64,000 bases of DNA from a bacterium. Lineage in GTDB: Bacteria; 4484-113. Positions 50,772 to 57,605 of this stretch are shown in pieces. Below the pieces are notes generated by a model, which had not been told where the DNA came from, did no database searches, and saw only the letters and a list, made by a program, of their open reading frames with translations. The position numbers and the translations under genes were made by a program. Location: positions 80,089 through 144,088 of the forward strand of contig JAGGTK010000099.1 of NCBI GenBank assembly GCA_021163765.1, written 5' to 3'. The number at the start of each line of letters is the position of its first letter. The stretch's first letter is position 1.

Positions 50772-52139
50772 ATGAAGAATCTCATCAGACTGGCGGCATC
50801 ACTAGTTGTCGTTTTAATTCTTTTGCTCTGCTCAGCGGCCTTCAGCCAGGAATCGGATGTTGAACTGCCTGAAGAGCCGGCTGCTGCTGAAGAAGCCGGG
50901 CCGGAAGCGCTCGAGGGCGCCGACATAATCATCGGCTTGGAGCCAGCCGCAGAAGAAGTTCCTGCGGTCGAGGTGCCGTTGCCCTCGTACGTCACGGTCA
51001 GCGACCTCCCCAACGACGATGGCACGGGCATTGTAGTGGAGTTCGAAAAGGCCGAGGGCGAGACCGAAGCTCTCACTTACACTGTGAGCGTCGGAGCGGG
51101 GCCGGACGGGCCTTGGCAGGAGGTTGGCAGTTTCCCCGCGACGAAAAAGTGGAAGGAGGAGGCCGGTCATTACTATCCGGCGTTTTTCTGGTTCCAGAAA
51201 GGTCGCGCGGGCGTGAGCAATAACATCCACCTGTTCACCATCCAGAATCTGAGTGGCAACGTGCCTTTAGAGACGGGGGTGGAGTACTTCGTCAAGCTCA
51301 CCGCGAGCCTTGACGGTGCCAACCGGGATTACCCGGAGATTCTAAGCGCAACTCCTGAAGAGCAGTGGTTCGATACCGGGCGCACCAATGTGCTTATCCT
51401 CGCAGTGCTGTTCGGTGCGACGGTTCTTTACTTCATCGCCCGTGCGCGGCGCGACCCGAATCTGTTCATTCGCAAGATTAGCGGTCTGGACGCCGTGGAC
51501 GAGGCTATCGGTCGGGCAACCGAGATGGGCAAGCCCATCCTGTACCTGAACGGTATGTCTTCACTTGCCGATCTCAGCACGCTGGCAGCGCTCAATATTC
51601 TCGGCAGGGTCGCGCGGCGGGTGGCCAACTACGAGTCCAAGCTGACCGTCCCGTGCCGCGACCCGATTGTGCTGACTGTGGCCCAGGAGATTGTGAAAGC
51701 CGGCTACACTGATGCTGGGCGTCCGGATGCTTACAATGCGGACGACATATTTTTCTTGACCGAAGACCAGTTCTCGTATGCCGCAGCGGTCTGCGGCATT
51801 ATGATGCGCGACAAGCCGGCGGCCAACTTCTTTATGGGTTACTACTATGCTGAGGCCCTGATATTGACGGAGACCGGCGCGAGCACGGGGGCCATCCAGA
51901 TTGCCGGCACCGACGCGTCCACCCAGCTTCCGTTCTTCGTGACCACCTGCGATTACACGCTCATCGGCGAGGAGCTCTACGCGGCCAGCGCGTATCTCTC
52001 CCGTGAGCCGCTGGTGCTTGGCAGTTTGAAGGGCCAGGACATGGCCAAGGTCTTTATGATGGTTATGATTATTATCGGGACGCTGCTGATGACCTTCGGC
52101 GTCGTCTTTATCAAAGATCTCTTCAAGGCACTGGGGTAG
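50772..52139 (+). CDS. Hypothetical membrane protein: signal peptide, acidic linker, FN3-like ectodomain, TM, ~210-aa cytoplasmic domain, C-terminal TM
   Basis: MKNLIRLAASLVVVLILLLCSAAFSQ signal. TMs NVLILAVLFGATVLYFIA and VFMMVMIIIGTLLMTFGVVFI. No motif I can assign. Confidence 0.6.
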   Translation: MKNLIRLAASLVVVLILLLCSAAFSQESDVELPEEPAAAEEAGPEALEGADIIIGLEPAAEEVPAVEVPLPSYVTVSDLPNDDGTGIVVEFEKAEGETEALTYTVSVGAGPDGPWQEVGSFPATKKWKEEAGHYYPAFFWFQKGRAGVSNNIHLFTIQNLSGNVPLETGVEYFVKLTASLDGANRDYPEILSATPEEQWFDTGRTNVLILAVLFGATVLYFIARARRDPNLFIRKISGLDAVDEAIGRATEMGKPILYLNGMSSLADLSTLAALNILGRVARRVANYESKLTVPCRDPIVLTVAQEIVKAGYTDAGRPDAYNADDIFFLTEDQFSYAAAVCGIMMRDKPAANFFMGYYYAEALILTETGASTGAIQIAGTDASTQLPFFVTTCDYTLIGEELYAASAYLSREPLVLGSLKGQDMAKVFMMVMIIIGTLLMTFGVVFIKDLFKALG

Positions 52140-52142
52140 CAA

Positions 52143-52775
52143 ATGCAGTTTCTCAGGAAGCAATTTCCGGTGATGCTGGCTTTCGTGATGGGCATGGCGA
52201 TGTTCATCAGGGAATTCGTGCCCTCAAAGTTCTCGGAACAGCTGTACTACGGGTTCACCGACTGGGCCATCGTGATTGTCGGATTCTCTGCGGTCTTCGC
52301 AATCCTCTCGCTGCTGCATCACCATATGAACAAGGTGCGCCGGCGTGTGGAGGGTTACGGGTATTCGGTAATCACCATCCTGGCGTTCATCCAGATGATT
52401 ATCCTGGGGCTCATCTTCAGCGTGCGGCCCGGGACGCCTGCCGGATGGGAATACCAGTGGCTGTTCGTTCCGATGCAGGCAACGATGTTCGCCACGCTGG
52501 CGTTCTTCATCGCTTCGGCCGCTTTCCGGGCGTTCCGGGCGCGAACCTGGGAGGCTCTGGCGCTGCTCCTTGCAGGGCTCATCGTAATGATAGGGCGCGT
52601 GCCCATCGGCGAGTTCATCAGCCCCCACTTGAGCACGTTCTCTGATTGGATTATGAACAATCCCAGCATGGCCGGTTTCCGGGGGATAATTCTGGGTGTT
52701 GCCCTTGCCCAGATAGCCATATCGGTGCGCATCATCTTCGGCATTGAGCGCACCTACATGGGAGGTGGCGACTGA
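52143..52775 (+). CDS. Hypothetical polytopic membrane protein (about 5 TM)
   Basis: Starts 3 nt after the upstream stop. Hydrophobic segments throughout. No recognisable family motif. Confidence 0.6.
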   Translation: MQFLRKQFPVMLAFVMGMAMFIREFVPSKFSEQLYYGFTDWAIVIVGFSAVFAILSLLHHHMNKVRRRVEGYGYSVITILAFIQMIILGLIFSVRPGTPAGWEYQWLFVPMQATMFATLAFFIASAAFRAFRARTWEALALLLAGLIVMIGRVPIGEFISPHLSTFSDWIMNNPSMAGFRGIILGVALAQIAISVRIIFGIERTYMGGGD

Positions 52776-53638
52776 TGGAAAAGGTGCAGAAACCAAGTTT
52801 CATCGAGCGCTTTCTTCAGTTGGACCGCCGCATCATCTACACGCTGGTTGCTCTTGCGGTTGCCATACCACTGCTGTTCCCGCTGGGATTGCCCATCAAG
52901 GTTACGCCGGAGGTTCAGAGCGTCTACGATATGATTGAGGACCTCCCCGAAGGATCCAATATTCTTATGAGCGCCGACTTCGACCCCGCTTCAATGCCCG
53001 AGCTCTACCCGATGATGAAATCCGTGATGCGCCACATCATACGGAAGCACCACAAACTGGCCATCACGGTGCTCTGGCCCAACGGCCCCAATCTCGTGGC
53101 CCAGTGCATCGAGGAACTGAAGCAGGAATATCCCGAGTGGACGAACACGGTGGATTACGTCTTCCTGGGCTACCAGGTCGGGGGTGCCATCGTAATTATC
53201 TCAGTTGGAGATAGCTTCTCCGGTACGTTCCCCAAAGATTATTACGGAGAGTCGACTGACGGAATGCCGATTATCAAGGAGTTCAACCAGCTCGGCCAGG
53301 CCGACTATATGGTGATGTTCGAGGCCGGCAACTCCGGCGACTGGTGGATTGTTTACGGCACCGAAGTGCACGATGTGCCGGTTGGCGGCGGCGTCACTGC
53401 GGTTGTGGCGCCGATGTACTACCCGTATCTGCAGGCCAAGCAGCTAAACGGCATCATAGGCGGTCTGAAAGGCGCCGCTGAATACGAGAAGCTGACCGAC
53501 GTGCCTGCGCTGGCAACATCCGCAATGGACTCCCAGTCTATGGTGCACGCCCTGATATTCGTTGCCATTGTGCTTGCCAACATATTTGCGCTAATGCTCG
53601 TGGGTCAGAAGCGTCGTCAGGCGCGGGAGGAGATGTAG
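52775..53638 (+). CDS. Hypothetical bitopic membrane protein with central soluble domain
   Basis: The ATG overlaps the upstream TGA by 1 nt (TGATG). N-terminal TM IIYTLVALAVAIPLLFPLGL and C-terminal TM VHALIFVAIVLANIFALMLV. Confidence 0.6.
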   Translation: MEKVQKPSFIERFLQLDRRIIYTLVALAVAIPLLFPLGLPIKVTPEVQSVYDMIEDLPEGSNILMSADFDPASMPELYPMMKSVMRHIIRKHHKLAITVLWPNGPNLVAQCIEELKQEYPEWTNTVDYVFLGYQVGGAIVIISVGDSFSGTFPKDYYGESTDGMPIIKEFNQLGQADYMVMFEAGNSGDWWIVYGTEVHDVPVGGGVTAVVAPMYYPYLQAKQLNGIIGGLKGAAEYEKLTDVPALATSAMDSQSMVHALIFVAIVLANIFALMLVGQKRRQAREEM

Positions 53639-53640
53639 CC

Positions 53641-54417
53641 GTGACGCACCTAGGAATCATCTTGCTGCAGAATAACGGCTTGCTGCCCTGGCAGGAAGCA
53701 ATGGGCACCTTCTTCACTGAGGGTGGGATGATCGTTGTGGGTACCTGGATTGCCGCAGGCCTGACCCTCTTTATGTTCTCTTTCGTTTACAAGGACAACC
53801 CGTTCTTCCGCTTTGGCGAGCACCTCTATCTGGGCATCTCAGCGGGCTATCTTATGTCCCTGTACTTCTTCAACAACATGAAGCCCAAGTTCTTTTACCC
53901 CCTGATGCCCTTCCTGGACGCCAGCGGCGACAGCACACTGAACCTGTGGGTTATCATACCGGGCATACTTGGATTGTTCATTATCTTCCGGCTGATACCG
54001 GGCTGGGGCTGGCTCTCCCGCATCACCTTCGCTTTCTATATAGGCGGCTTCACCGGCATCTCGTTCCCCAAAGTGCTCAATGGCCTTCTGCTGCCGCAGT
54101 TTTACGCCACGATGCAGTCTATCCCGTGGCAGGTAAATTCACTTGACTCCGCCGTGTTGCTGCTAAACTCGCTCGTTTTATTCGTGGGCGCGCTGTCGGT
54201 GCTCGTGTACTTCTTCTTCTCGATGGAGCACCGGGGGTTTATTGGAGGCGTATCGCGAGTCGGCATCTACACCCTGATGATAGCCTTCGGCGCGTCCTTC
54301 GGCTACACGATTATGGCGCGCATTTCGCTGCTCATCGGCCGCATGCAATTTTTAATGTTCGACTGGATCGGCGACGAAATAGTGGCCCGAATAGGGTCGT
54401 TGTTCCACGGCGGCTAG
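53641..54417 (+). CDS. Hypothetical polytopic membrane protein (about 6-7 TM)
   Basis: GTG start 2 nt after the upstream stop. Hydrophobic throughout. Confidence 0.55.
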   Translation: MTHLGIILLQNNGLLPWQEAMGTFFTEGGMIVVGTWIAAGLTLFMFSFVYKDNPFFRFGEHLYLGISAGYLMSLYFFNNMKPKFFYPLMPFLDASGDSTLNLWVIIPGILGLFIIFRLIPGWGWLSRITFAFYIGGFTGISFPKVLNGLLLPQFYATMQSIPWQVNSLDSAVLLLNSLVLFVGALSVLVYFFFSMEHRGFIGGVSRVGIYTLMIAFGASFGYTIMARISLLIGRMQFLMFDWIGDEIVARIGSLFHGG

Positions 54418-54419
54418 GA

Positions 54420-56618
54420 ATGGCCCAGAGCCGGCCCCTGGCTGCTGCGCGTCCTACGGCGCTGCTGGTTGCCCTGATATTCTTCCTGCTGCTATGCCCG
54501 CTGCCGGCGCGCGCGGCTCCTGGCGGAATCGTGCGCGACGAATGGGGCGTTCCGCACATCACCGCGGACACAATCCCGGAGCTATTCCGCATGCTTGGCT
54601 ACGCCACCGCCGAGGACCGGCTGGTGCAGGTCGACATCTCACGGCGCAAAGCCTGCGGCCAGCTTGCGGAAATAGGCGGCGAAGGATACCTGCGGGGTGA
54701 CATAGAGATGCGCCGGCTGAATCTGCGCAAGCTTGCCGGGCGCGACCTGGCCCGGCTGGCCGAAACCGCTCCTGATGCTCACGCGGCGCTGCTCGCCTAC
54801 GCTCAGGGAATCAATGACTGCGTGGCCGATGAAGGGCTGCCGCCCGAGTACTTCGCGCTGCCGGAGTTCACGCCGTGGCTTCCTGAGGATACGCTGGCAA
54901 TCGCGGCACTGATGCACGTCTACCTTTCCGGCGACCACTACGATGAGCTTGCCAGGCTGCGTGCCCGAAGGCGCGGCGGGGATTGGGCGCTGATGCAGGA
55001 GACGCTTGATGGTCTCGCGGCGCGGCGGGAATGGTGCTCAGCAATCGCTGAACCGTGGGACGGGCTTACGCTGATGTCTGGTTGCGGTGATAGCGGACGG
55101 GTGCTGGGAAGCAACGCCTTCGTGGTTTCGGGGGAGCTCACCGCCAACGGGCGTCCCATTGTCGCAGGCGACCCGCACCTGGACGTGACCTACCCCGGTA
55201 TCTGGTACGAAGTCGCGCTGGAAGTGCCTGGCGAGATGCGTGTGCGCGGGATAACAGTGCCGGGTGCCGCTCTCGTCGCGATGGGCGAGACTGCGAACTA
55301 CTCCTGGGCGCTAACCGCGCTGCAAGCGGACAATGAAGACATCCTCATCGTTCCCAGGGAAAACGTCGTTGCGGTCTTCGGCGGGGAACTCACATCCCGC
55401 GAGGAAACAATCCGCGTCCGCGATGGCCTGGCTGTCCGCGAAGAGAAGGCGACCATCCTTGACTCGCCGCTGGGGCCGGTTGTGGAAGCCGACGAGGACA
55501 GCTACTACATACTCCACTGGGCGGGCTTTTATCCCAACGACGAGGCGCTGGGCTACTTCTCCATCAACTGCGGGAGTTCGCTGGACGACTTCCAGGCGGC
55601 GCTCACAAAGCTCGCAACCCCCTGCAACTTTGTCTATGCGGATGTAAGCGGGAACATCGCCTACTTCGCTGCGGGATTAGTGCCCCGGCGGGATTACGAC
55701 GGGAATGATGCCCGGCTGGTTGCCACGCCGGAGCAGGCGGCGGATTACCACTGGGATTTCGTCCCGATTGAGGAAATGCCGCACGCCGTCAATCCACCTG
55801 AAGGCTTCCTGGTCACCTGCAACAACCCTCCGGCACTGACCGCATGCGGCCGGCCCGTGTTCCCCGGGAACTACGCCCCCGGGTACCGTGCACGGCGCAT
55901 TAGCGAGCTGATACTTGAAGGCGCAAGCGGCAGCAATCTCACATTGGAAGATGTAGCGCGAATACAACTGGACGTTCACTCCAGCTTTGCGGAAGAAGCC
56001 CTGCCTCCGCTCCTGAGCAGGCTTCGCTCACTGGAAGGCGGGATGCCCGGCGCTGAGCGCAAGGCGCTGCAAGTGCTGTCTGGGTGGGACTTCGAAGAAA
56101 ATACGCAATCGCATGGCGCGCCGCTATACGAGCTGATGCGGCGGGAGCTTACGGCATCCCTGCGAACCGCGCATCGCGTATCAGGTCATTATGACATCGC
56201 CCTCCTGGCCGCGCTGCAAGGGGCTGATTGGATATCGCTCAGTGATTCGGAGCTTTCAGCCGCATGGCATGGCGCGGTGGGCAGGGCACTGTCCCACGGC
56301 CGTTCAGGACTGCCGGCATACGGCGAAATCCACCGCCTGCCGCTGGTGAGCCCGCTTCCATTCTACGCCACGCAATCGCCAGGGATGCTGCCGGCGTCGG
56401 GCGGCTACCGCACGGTGAACGTGTCTGCGGTGCGGTGGGATGGCGCTTATTTACTCAAGAGTTTCGGTCCCACCGCGCGCCTGATAATGGCCCCTGGGGC
56501 AACAGGCGCTTACTGGTCGGCGCTTCCGGGCGGAAACAGCGGGCGCCCCAAAAGCCCCAACTGGGCTGACCAGGTGGCTCTATTCCTGGCTGGGGGATAC
56601 AAGTATCGGCGGCGCTGA
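54420..56618 (+). CDS. Penicillin/AHL acylase family Ntn-hydrolase (peptidase S45), secreted
   Basis: Signal ...LLVALIFFLLLCPLPARA. WGVPHI near the N-terminus. Autoprocessing/nucleophile site G-SNAFVVSG followed by GRPIVAGDPHL. The ATG is 2 nt after the upstream stop. Confidence 0.8.
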   Translation: MAQSRPLAAARPTALLVALIFFLLLCPLPARAAPGGIVRDEWGVPHITADTIPELFRMLGYATAEDRLVQVDISRRKACGQLAEIGGEGYLRGDIEMRRLNLRKLAGRDLARLAETAPDAHAALLAYAQGINDCVADEGLPPEYFALPEFTPWLPEDTLAIAALMHVYLSGDHYDELARLRARRRGGDWALMQETLDGLAARREWCSAIAEPWDGLTLMSGCGDSGRVLGSNAFVVSGELTANGRPIVAGDPHLDVTYPGIWYEVALEVPGEMRVRGITVPGAALVAMGETANYSWALTALQADNEDILIVPRENVVAVFGGELTSREETIRVRDGLAVREEKATILDSPLGPVVEADEDSYYILHWAGFYPNDEALGYFSINCGSSLDDFQAALTKLATPCNFVYADVSGNIAYFAAGLVPRRDYDGNDARLVATPEQAADYHWDFVPIEEMPHAVNPPEGFLVTCNNPPALTACGRPVFPGNYAPGYRARRISELILEGASGSNLTLEDVARIQLDVHSSFAEEALPPLLSRLRSLEGGMPGAERKALQVLSGWDFEENTQSHGAPLYELMRRELTASLRTAHRVSGHYDIALLAALQGADWISLSDSELSAAWHGAVGRALSHGRSGLPAYGEIHRLPLVSPLPFYATQSPGMLPASGGYRTVNVSAVRWDGAYLLKSFGPTARLIMAPGATGAYWSALPGGNSGRPKSPNWADQVALFLAGGYKYRRR

Positions 56619-56624
56619 TATAAT
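56616..56624 (+). promoter_or_regulatory. Extended -10 box TGATATAAT upstream of the CcdA-like gene
   Basis: Overlaps the acylase stop codon. 42 nt before ATG 56667, which has an AAGGAG SD. Confidence 0.4.
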
Positions 56625-56666
56625 ACCGGGCTATTCATATTACACGTGAATTATACAAGGAGATAG

Positions 56667-57605
56667 ATGAACCGCACCATTATTAAGGCGTTTAGCCACT
56701 CGCTTGCCTTTGTGCTGGGCTTTTCGATTATCTTCATAATCCTTGGCCTGCCGGCCAACCTGATAGGCGAAATAATCAACAAGCATCCCCGGTGGTTTGG
56801 TTACGTCGGGGGCGTCATAGTCATAATCCTGGGCCTGCACATCTTTCTCAGCACCTGGGGCCTGTCTCCGCTCAGGTTTCTTTATGTGGAGAAGAAGGCC
56901 CATGTTCAGGCGGGGAGCGGCTACCTGTCGTCGCTTCTAATCGGGATTACCTTCGCCGCCGGCTGGACGCCCTGCCTGGGGCCGATCCTGGCGGTCATTC
57001 TTACTCTCGCCGCCAGTTCTCCCGGCCAGGGTGTGCCAATGATGATTGCGTATTCACTGGGACTGGCGATTCCATTCCTCCTGGTGGCGCTGCTCATTGG
57101 CTCGGCGCTCGGCTTCATCCAGAGAATCGCGCGTTATGTGGGCGCAATCAACGTAGTCAGCTCGCTGCTGCTCATCGCTGTTGGCTTCGTGCTGTTTTTT
57201 GGCTTCCTGTCGCGTTCTTACACGGTTGACCCCGGCCTGCTGCTCCGCATCGCGCTCTATGTCGCTGCCGTGACACTGGTGTTGCTTGTGGTGCTGCTCG
57301 CTGCGAAATGGGTCGCTAAAGACCCGGAGATTGCGAAAAAGACGTTCGTTCCAGCGCTTGCCGCCGGGGCGGTATTCGGCCTGGCGGTATTCTTCTGGGG
57401 TGTGGCGCAACTGGTGATGCTTATGGGCGAAACCACGCTGAACGCTGAGGTCTGGCTGCAGGGGGCTGCGGTGAACCTGGGAATTGCGTTCGTAGCCGGC
57501 ATCGCCTCATTCCTCTCCCCCTGCGTCCTGCCAATGGTGCCGACGTATATACTGATAATCGGCGGGCTGTCGTTTGACGACATTCAGCCTAAGCCGGCGG
57601 CTTAG
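56667..57605 (+). CDS. CcdA/DsbD-family thiol-disulfide transporter, apparently circularly permuted (8 TM)
   Basis: Begins at the CcdA TM2-like segment HSLAFVLGFSIIFIILG. Contains the TM4 motif AAGWTPCLGPILAVIL. Ends with the TM1 motif GIASFLSPCVLPMVPTYILIIGG. An in-frame TAG lies immediately upstream of the ATG. Confidence 0.7.
   Translation: MNRTIIKAFSHSLAFVLGFSIIFIILGLPANLIGEIINKHPRWFGYVGGVIVIILGLHIFLSTWGLSPLRFLYVEKKAHVQAGSGYLSSLLIGITFAAGWTPCLGPILAVILTLAASSPGQGVPMMIAYSLGLAIPFLLVALLIGSALGFIQRIARYVGAINVVSSLLLIAVGFVLFFGFLSRSYTVDPGLLLRIALYVAAVTLVLLVVLLAAKWVAKDPEIAKKTFVPALAAGAVFGLAVFFWGVAQLVMLMGETTLNAEVWLQGAAVNLGIAFVAGIASFLSPCVLPMVPTYILIIGGLSFDDIQPKPAA

What the first reader, a model, noticed from the sequence alone, without database searches (positions are those of the whole stretch)
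56667..57605. Circularly permuted CcdA/DsbD-type transmembrane reductant transporter
Seen in sequence: the ORF has a strong AAGGAG SD, and an in-frame TAG directly precedes the ATG. It begins with the segment that normally follows TM1 of CcdA (SHSLAFVLGFSIIFIILG). It continues colinearly through the second-cysteine motif AAGWTPCLGPILAVIL and the remaining helices. It then adds two extra hydrophobic helices (LLRIALYVAAVTLVLLVVLLAA and PALAAGAVFGLAVFFWGVAQLVML). It ends with the canonical first-cysteine helix GIASFLSPCVLPMVPTYILIIGG.

Established knowledge: CcdA has six TMs with catalytic Cys residues in TM1 and TM4. Its termini lie on the same side, so a permutation needs an even number of linker helices, and two are present here.

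Inference: this is a natural circular permutant (order TM2-6, two linker helices, TM1) that keeps both catalytic cysteines. I am not aware that this has been described.
Basis: partly seen in the sequence, partly recalled or inferred. Interest (0 to 1): 0.6.

Follow-up and report, generated by a model that had tools for sequence, protein, structure and literature searches.

The report
Circularly permuted CcdA membrane reductase
This gene encodes a CcdA-type membrane protein (it carries reducing power out of the cell interior) whose first helix has moved to the end of the chain; the same rearrangement arose many times in bacteria and I found no paper describing it.

Summary
ORF 56667-57605 (+, 312 aa) matches CcdA out of order by three methods: TM2-TM6 come first, then two extra helices, then TM1. 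Both catalytic Cys motifs (GWTPC, SPCVLP) are invariant in the family.

It is not an assembly artefact. The identical protein sits on 9 contigs, and orthologues of 50-92% identity keep the order under purifying selection.

- The two extra helices are not needed for the permutation. Sister genera carry a 249-aa, six-helix permutant that joins TM6 directly to TM1. The hairpin is most simply a later, weakly constrained insertion.
- The permutation is not unique. Among the nearest CcdA clusters I found about 11 further permuted lineages, always broken in the TM1/TM2 loop. They are common in Anaerolineae and are already deposited simply as "CcdA". A tree needs at least 10 separate origins, and an AU test rejects a single origin (p 8e-6).

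The genome has System II cytochrome c biogenesis (CcsB-CcsA), a cytoplasmic thioredoxin and an exported TlpA-like thioredoxin. No other DsbD-family gene was found in its genus. The protein most likely does the normal CcdA job.

I found no paper describing a permuted CcdA or DsbD. Verdict: real, a new variant of a known kind, moderately interesting.

The parts
56616..56624 (+). Extended -10 promoter-like element TGATATAAT, overlapping the TGA stop of the upstream acylase gene
   Evidence: Read directly. GCTGATATAAT is conserved at the same place in orthologous loci of genera g1 and g3. The two-hexamer scan found no -35/-10 pair, so this is an extended -10 only. Its function is inferred.
56657..56662 (+). 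Shine-Dalgarno AAGGAG, 4 nt before the ATG
   Evidence: read directly.
56667..57605 (+). Whole ORF: circularly permuted CcdA, 312 aa plus stop
56667..57221 (+). Residues 1-185: second half of the TM1/TM2 cytoplasmic loop, then TM2-TM6 of CcdA, including TM4 with GWTPCLGP (Cys103)
   Evidence: Matches Pfam DsbD_TM profile 39-214 and 5VKV residues 42-204. dN/dS is 0.09-0.20. In the model the TM4 helix is broken at residues 98-104.
57222..57434 (+). Residues 186-256: inserted helical hairpin, helix X about 190-214, Lys-rich cytoplasmic loop 215-228, helix Y about 229-252
   Evidence: Absent from the 249-250-aa sister forms. Predicted helices at 189-216 and 220-255. The loop carries 2-4 K/R. dN/dS is 0.26-0.59. 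An HMM of the segment hits only this family.
57435..57602 (+). Residues 257-312: periplasmic linker, TM1 of CcdA with SPCVLPMVP (Cys286), and the first half of the TM1/TM2 loop as a cytoplasmic tail
   Evidence: Matches Pfam profile 3-34, 5VKV residues 3-35 and canonical CcdA residues 1-44. dN/dS is 0.07-0.17. The helix is broken at residues 282-290.

Best explanation
The gene encodes a working CcdA-type transmembrane thiol-disulfide transporter with a circularly permuted chain. The break lies in the cytoplasmic TM1/TM2 loop, and TM6 is joined to TM1 on the periplasmic side.

The most likely route is tandem duplication of ccdA, in-frame fusion, then loss of the first TM1 and of the second TM2-6. 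This gave a six-helix permutant with both termini in the cytoplasm. In the ancestor of genera g1, g3 and g4 a two-helix hairpin was then inserted between TM6 and TM1, giving eight helices.

I infer the protein folds into the usual CcdA core. There the broken helices TM1 (Cys286) and TM4 (Cys103) meet in mid-membrane. The pair is reduced by cytoplasmic thioredoxin and in turn reduces an exported TlpA/ResA-like thioredoxin. That thioredoxin keeps apocytochrome c cysteines reduced for the CcsBA (System II) haem ligase, and possibly serves other envelope thiols.

Shown here: the permuted order, its conservation under selection, the six-helix sister form, the repeated origins, and the presence of the partner genes. 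Inferred: the fold, the direction of the hairpin event, the electron donors and acceptors, and the duplication route.
For: - Order: split, out-of-order matches by BLASTP, Pfam and the solved CcdA.
- Real gene: the identical protein is on 9 contigs from JGI and ENA assemblies. Orthologues occur in 7 of 9 genomes of family f1, with open frames and no internal stops.
- Selection: dN/dS is 0.09-0.20 for the core, 0.07-0.17 for the TM1 part and 0.26-0.59 for the insert. Both PC motifs are invariant.
- Topology: K+R counts are 9-16 on the predicted inside against 1-4 outside, in all 15 members.
- Model: pLDDT 77.3, pTM 0.71, eight TM helices, with TM1 and TM4 broken at the Cys motifs.
- Six-helix sister clade has support 99/97 and the whole family 100/100.
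- Duplication footprint in another lineage: in permuted P0174 the TM6-TM1 linker reads as the C-terminal tail plus the N-terminal head of its canonical sister P0224.
- Pathway parts in this genome: CcsB-CcsA at C36:8814-11239, thioredoxin with WCPPC at C1:3167-3481, and an exported TlpA-like protein with WAKWCAPC at C60:3554-4579.
- No other DsbD-family match was found in the three genomes of the genus.
- Other permuted lineages sit in ordinary CcdA contexts: next to a Redoxin gene and a Glrx/DUF2085 gene, or after a ccmD-like ORF.
Against:
- The fold comparison failed. Foldseek found no significant PDB match for either model, so the 3D claim rests on sequence homology and secondary structure only.
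- I could not see model coordinates, so Cys-Cys proximity is unchecked.
- The genome is 78.6% complete, so a canonical ccdA could be missing from it. The two other genomes of the genus (88% and 91% complete) also lack one.
- The thioredoxin-like acceptor is not adjacent to the gene.
- The direction of the hairpin event (gain or loss) is not resolved by the tree: the 8-TM group has only 86/73 support and sits as sister to the 6-TM clade.
- One near-identical contig (L110) carries 42-nt and 111-nt deletions in this gene.
Confidence: 0.8

Rival explanations
1. Assembly or annotation artefact: two tandem ccdA copies joined by a mis-assembly or frameshift, or a wrong start codon that hides an upstream TM1.
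For: One near-identical contig (L110) shows internal deletions in this gene and a split acylase gene, so assemblies of this population are not all clean.
Against: An in-frame TAG directly precedes the ATG, and the upstream 2.2 kb is an S45 acylase gene. The identical protein is on 9 contigs from separate assemblies. Orthologues at 50-92% identity in seven species-level genomes keep the same order under purifying selection. The only two Pfam DsbD_TM matches in the genome are the two pieces of this ORF.
Confidence: 0.02
2. The eight-helix form is ancestral. An eight-helix CcdA/DsbD-beta-like protein (TM1-6 plus TM7-8) was permuted, so helices X and Y are homologues of TM7-8 and not an insertion. 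The 249-aa form then arose by losing them.
For: Canonical CcdAs with two extra C-terminal helices exist (P0187), and DsbD/ScsB beta domains have eight TMs (PMC3322552). On the tree the 6-TM and 8-TM groups are sisters, so one gain and one loss are equally parsimonious within the family.
Against: An HMM of the X-Y segment hits nothing outside the family, including P0187. The nearest canonical neighbours on the tree are short (239-296 aa), though only P0134 and P0137 were read directly. All other permuted lineages lack such helices. This route needs three events against two.
Confidence: 0.12
3. The protein has left the CcdA job. It serves the conserved upstream operon (DUF6754, three unknown membrane proteins, secreted S45 acylase), for example by keeping cysteines of the acylase or another operon product reduced. 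It would not serve cytochrome c maturation.
For: The operon-ccdA adjacency is kept in every family member examined, 6-TM and 8-TM alike, while the downstream genes differ. The acylase has eight cysteines.
Against: The operon is present, mostly in two copies, in 22 of 24 genomes of the phylum, including families that lack the permuted gene. The gene has its own conserved extended -10 element. The genus has System II and no other DsbD-family protein found. The two roles are not exclusive.
Confidence: 0.15
4. Decaying or non-functional remnant: the permuted order cannot fold and the gene is drifting.
For: The L110 variant has lost the start region and helix X.
Against: dN/dS is well below 1 in all three parts. 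Both Cys motifs are invariant at 50% overall identity. Frames are open in all orthologues.
Confidence: 0.02

Closest known systems
CcdA (six-TM thiol-disulfide transporter; solved structure: Thermus thermophilus 5VKV; prototype Rhodobacter capsulatus CcdA)
   Same: It has the same domain: Pfam DsbD_TM at 35.8 bits against a cut-off of 27.1, and phmmer E 7.5e-34 to 5VKV. It has the same two Pro-Cys motifs in TM1 and TM4 and about 45% identity over TM2-6. The genome has the same kind of partners (thioredoxin, TlpA-like protein, System II).
   Different: The chain order is TM2-6 ... TM1 instead of TM1-6. Both termini are predicted cytoplasmic instead of periplasmic. There are two extra helices, so eight TMs, and the protein is 312 aa against about 230-250.
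DsbD / ScsB beta domains (eight-TM members of the DsbD superfamily; PMC3322552)
   Same: It has eight transmembrane helices and the same two membrane cysteines.
   Different: It has no periplasmic alpha or gamma domains. Its extra helices lie between TM6 and TM1, not after TM6 at the chain end. NCBIfam DsbD matches only the TM1 segment, at 8.4 bits.
The 249-250-aa permuted CcdAs of sister lineages (P0016, P0017, P0019, P0022) and the permuted CcdAs of Anaerolineae and other groups (P0135, P0289, P0172, P0174, P0089 and others)
   Same: They share the same break point in the TM1/TM2 loop, the same TM2-6 then TM1 order and the same motifs. P0016-P0022 also share the upstream operon.
   Different: They have six helices and no hairpin. 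The non-family lineages arose separately and sit in classic ccdA contexts.

Membership tests
CcdA / DsbD_TM (PF02683) | Significant match to the family profile above the curated cut-off | tested here: met
   35.8 bits against a cut-off of 27.1. DsbD_2 also passes, at 28.2 against 24.9. The match to 5VKV has E 7.5e-34.
CcdA / DsbD_TM (PF02683) | Two redox cysteines in Pro-Cys motifs inside TM1 and TM4 | tested here: met
   GWTPC103 and SPC286VLP are invariant in 15 family members. The modelled helices are broken at both motifs.
CcdA / DsbD_TM (PF02683) | Colinear TM1-TM6 order with periplasmic termini | tested here: not met
   Profile positions 39-214 precede positions 3-34 in the ORF. K/R counts place both termini inside.
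CcdA / DsbD_TM (PF02683) | Transfers electrons from cytoplasmic thioredoxin to an exported thioredoxin-like protein | not testable with these tools
   Candidate donor and acceptor genes exist in the genome. There is no assay.
CcdA / DsbD_TM (PF02683) | Genome encodes a cytochrome c maturation system that needs it | tested here: met
   A CcsA-type PF01578 match occurs in all 11 genomes tested. A 519-aa ORF that I read as ResB/CcsB-like (not scanned against a profile) lies directly upstream of it on C36.
DsbD / ScsB (three-domain reductases) | Periplasmic alpha and gamma (thioredoxin-like) domains flanking an eight-TM beta domain | tested here: not met
   The protein has only 312 aa and no domain other than DsbD_TM/DsbD_2. 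NCBIfam DsbD scores 8.4 bits against a cut-off of 330.
Natural circular permutant (duplication-truncation type) | Two segments each homologous to the parent, in swapped order, with the new junction made from the parent's old termini | tested here: met
   Searches show the swap. The junction footprint is seen directly in the P0174/P0224 pair. In the window's own family the parent is too distant for this to be visible.

The most novel reading that the evidence does not exclude
CcdA has been circularly permuted at least ten separate times in bacteria, always at the TM1/TM2 loop. That would make it an unusually recurrent natural permutation of a polytopic, inverted-repeat membrane protein. The recurrence suggests a selective benefit. 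My conjecture is that a chain starting N-in with TM2 as an ordinary signal-anchor avoids having to translocate the N-tail of canonical CcdA, and that it leaves both termini free in the cytoplasm. The window's lineage then went a step further by tolerating a two-helix hairpin just before the catalytic TM1, and it uses this form as its only DsbD-family reductant conduit.
Probability: 0.55. Interest if true: 0.7.

Novelty: new variant of a known kind. Interest (0 to 1): 0.6.

Why it matters
Few natural circular permutations of multi-pass membrane proteins are on record, to my knowledge. In this case the moved piece is one of the two catalytic, half-broken helices at the centre of the fold. If the permutants work, they show that CcdA's core can assemble with TM1 inserted last instead of first, and even when TM1 is separated from TM6 by an extra hairpin.

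That gives a ready-made natural test set for questions on membrane-protein folding order and on the alternating-access mechanism of CcdA and DsbD. The set contains canonical, six-helix permuted and eight-helix permuted forms, some in close sister pairs.

There are two practical consequences. Profile-based annotation scores these proteins weakly, or splits them, so they can be missed or mislabelled. Cytoplasmic termini also make them convenient scaffolds for fusions.

Tried and rejected
- The first AlphaFold run, with 15 family rows, was poor (pLDDT 63.8). The second, with 63 rows, was usable.
- I tried to name the phylum through cluster names, paper searches for accession numbers and an LpxA homologue search.
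- The AU test on the 156-row tree did not finish in two 300-s runs. It was replaced by the 58-row test.
- An internal-duplication or DsbD-TM7/8 origin for the hairpin found no support: its HMM finds nothing outside the family.
- The two-hexamer promoter scan found nothing. Only an extended -10 is present.

Full report
**1. The observation**

The window has a 312-codon ORF at 56667-57605 on the + strand. Reading the DNA gives:
- AAGGAG at 56657-56662;
- an in-frame TAG at 56664-56666;
- the ATG at 56667;
- a perfect extended -10 (TGATATAAT) at 56616-56624, overlapping the stop codon of the upstream gene.

Upstream lies a 732-aa secreted S45 penicillin-amidase-like protein. Downstream lies a convergent lpxA. 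So there is no room for a hidden TM1 upstream or for a second ccdA copy.

**2. The order really is permuted**

Three independent comparisons agree.
- BLASTP against a canonical 243-aa CcdA (P0048) gives two HSPs in swapped order. Query 2-182 matches subject 48-225 (45% identity, E 4e-34). Query 264-307 matches subject 1-44 (50% identity, E 2e-12).
- A whole-genome search with Pfam PF02683 finds just two matches, both inside this ORF. Profile positions 39-214 come first and positions 3-34 lie 277 nt further downstream.
- phmmer against the PDB finds the solved Thermus thermophilus CcdA (5VKV, E 7.5e-34). Query 11-182 matches chain 42-204, and query 269-301 matches chain 3-35.

The break is therefore in the TM1/TM2 loop. 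The C-terminal tail GLSFDDIQ corresponds to the first half of that loop in P0048. The N-terminus NRTIIKAFSHSL corresponds to its second half.

**3. It is a real, selected gene**

The identical protein was read on 9 contigs, and the four places shown come from one JGI and one ENA assembly.

The search for homologous proteins returned full-length relatives of 308-317 aa at 50-92% identity, and 249-250-aa relatives at about 52% identity. In a 15-sequence alignment both motifs (AGWTPCxGP and SFLSPCVLPMVP) are invariant. The segment between residues 186 and 256 is poorly conserved and is missing from the 249-aa forms.

Pairwise dN/dS among orthologous loci:

| Part | dN/dS |
|---|---|
| TM2-6 | 0.09-0.20 |
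| TM1 part | 0.07-0.17 |
| Inserted hairpin | 0.26-0.59 |

K+R counts follow the positive-inside rule in every member, with 9-16 inside against 1-4 outside. This fits cytoplasmic termini and a cytoplasmic, Lys-rich X-Y loop.

An AlphaFold2 model built with 63 aligned rows reached pLDDT 77.3 and pTM 0.71. It shows eight long helices, with TM4 interrupted at 98-104 and TM1 at 282-290, that is, at the two Pro-Cys motifs. From my own knowledge of the CcdA structures, their cysteine-bearing helices are likewise broken. The 3D claim therefore remains an inference.

**4. Where the family sits**

The genome is a 1.9-Mb, 78.6%-complete MAG of a small uncultivated phylum with 24 species genomes in the held set. 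I could not obtain the phylum's name.

The permuted gene is found only in family f1. Genera g1, g3 and g4 have the eight-helix form. Genus g5 (G008) has the six-helix form, and family f2 has no match.

In all members examined, six- and eight-helix alike, the gene follows the same five-gene block: a DUF6754 protein, three unrecognised membrane proteins and the S45 acylase. The downstream genes differ. That block is present in 22 of 24 genomes of the phylum, mostly in two copies, including genomes without the permuted gene. The gene also has its own extended -10, conserved in g1 and g3. I therefore treat the linkage as conserved neighbourhood with possible read-through, not as proof of a shared function.

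**5. Likely function**

All 11 genomes tested carry one CcsA-type gene. In this genome it lies next to a 519-aa ORF that I read as ResB/CcsB-like, at C36:8814-11239. This is System II cytochrome c biogenesis, which in other bacteria depends on CcdA plus an exported thioredoxin (my own knowledge; the family background is in PMC3322552).

The genome also encodes:
- a 104-aa thioredoxin with WCPPC;
- a signal-anchored TlpA-like protein with WAKWCAPC.

The three genomes of genus g1 have no DsbD-family match other than the permuted gene.

Other permuted lineages sit in textbook contexts. P0089 lies beside a Redoxin gene and a Glrx/DUF2085 gene. P0135 lies behind a ccmD-like ORF. The simplest reading is that the permuted proteins do the ordinary CcdA job.

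**6. The permutation is recurrent**

The exhaustive representative search listed 150 clusters. By domain order, those outside the window's family included P0135, P0164, P0172, P0174, P0188, P0204, P0245, P0252, P0256 and P0276. All of them start at the TM1/TM2 loop and end with TM1. No other break point was seen.

A search seeded with P0135 showed that 50 of the 116 clusters I classified are permuted. One is deposited in nr as 'cytochrome c biogenesis protein CcdA [Anaerolineae bacterium]'.

I built a maximum-likelihood tree on homologous columns (TM1 plus TM2-6), with 58 rows:
- it needs 11 changes of architecture;
- starred branches force at least 10;
- none of 200 bootstrap trees has a single origin.

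The AU test rejects one clade of all permutants (delta lnL 430, p 8e-6). The window's family is one clade (100/100). Its six-helix members form a 99/97 clade that is sister to the eight-helix group (86/73).

The closest pair is permuted P0174 and canonical P0224 (100/100, short branches). It shows the footprint expected from duplication, fusion and truncation. The TM6-TM1 linker of P0174 reads as the C-terminal tail of P0224 followed by its N-terminal head.

**7. The two extra helices**

Canonical CcdA has both termini on the same side, so TM6 can be joined to TM1 by a loop, and the 249-aa forms do exactly that. The hairpin is therefore not required.

Gain of the hairpin after the permutation needs two events. 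The alternative, permutation of an eight-helix ancestor followed by loss, needs three. That alternative has no sequence support, because the hairpin HMM hits only this family. The tree itself cannot polarise the event.

Hairpin insertions elsewhere in the family (between TM3 and TM4, or after TM6) are seen in several canonical clusters. This scaffold evidently tolerates them.

**8. Literature**

Full-text searches found only unrelated papers, or none, for three queries: 'circular permutation' with CcdA, 'circularly permuted' with DsbD, and permut* with DsbD and CcdA. [quoted passage not shown] Subscription-only papers were not searchable, so 'undescribed' is provisional.

**9. Verdict**

It is a new variant of a known kind. 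Confidence is about 0.8 that it is a functional permuted CcdA. Interest is 0.6.

Noticed in passing
window 50772-56618; also G000:C6:11584-12315: The five-gene block (DUF6754 protein, three unrecognised membrane proteins, secreted S45 acylase) is near-universal in this phylum: 22 of 24 genomes, mostly with two paralogous copies. DUF6754 matched none of 14 well-known control genomes. Its function is unknown.
   Followed up: partly
L110:2890-3800 (JGI 3300033153, 24-kb contig): A near-identical copy of this locus (1 SNP) has a 42-nt deletion that removes the SD, the start codon and 7 codons. It also has a 111-nt in-frame deletion removing helix X, and the acylase gene is split in two. This is either a poor assembly or a decaying strain variant.
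   Followed up: partly
proteins P0137, P0152, P0176, P0254, P0270, P0187: Canonical CcdAs exist with extra hydrophobic segments inserted between TM3 and TM4, or with two extra helices after TM6. Helical-hairpin insertions seem to be a common theme in this family.
   Followed up: no
G000:C60:3554-4579 (+): The exported TlpA-like thioredoxin (WAKWCAPC) carries an unrecognised C-terminal extension of about 170 aa.
   Followed up: no
G002:C39:16498-17058, G003:C262:1074-1637, G006:C12:3-497: Some sister genera have an additional colinear ORF (238 aa in G002 and G003, 198 aa at a contig end in G006) with a weak DsbD_TM match of 30-33 bits. It was not found in genus g1.
   Followed up: no
window 56616-56624 and orthologous loci L087, L096, L098, L099: The extended -10 GCTGATATAAT overlaps the acylase stop codon and is conserved across two genera.
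   Followed up: partly
protein P0330: A canonical CcdA of Anaerolineae is labelled 'sulfite exporter TauE/SafE family protein' in nr. This is probably a mis-annotation.
   Followed up: no
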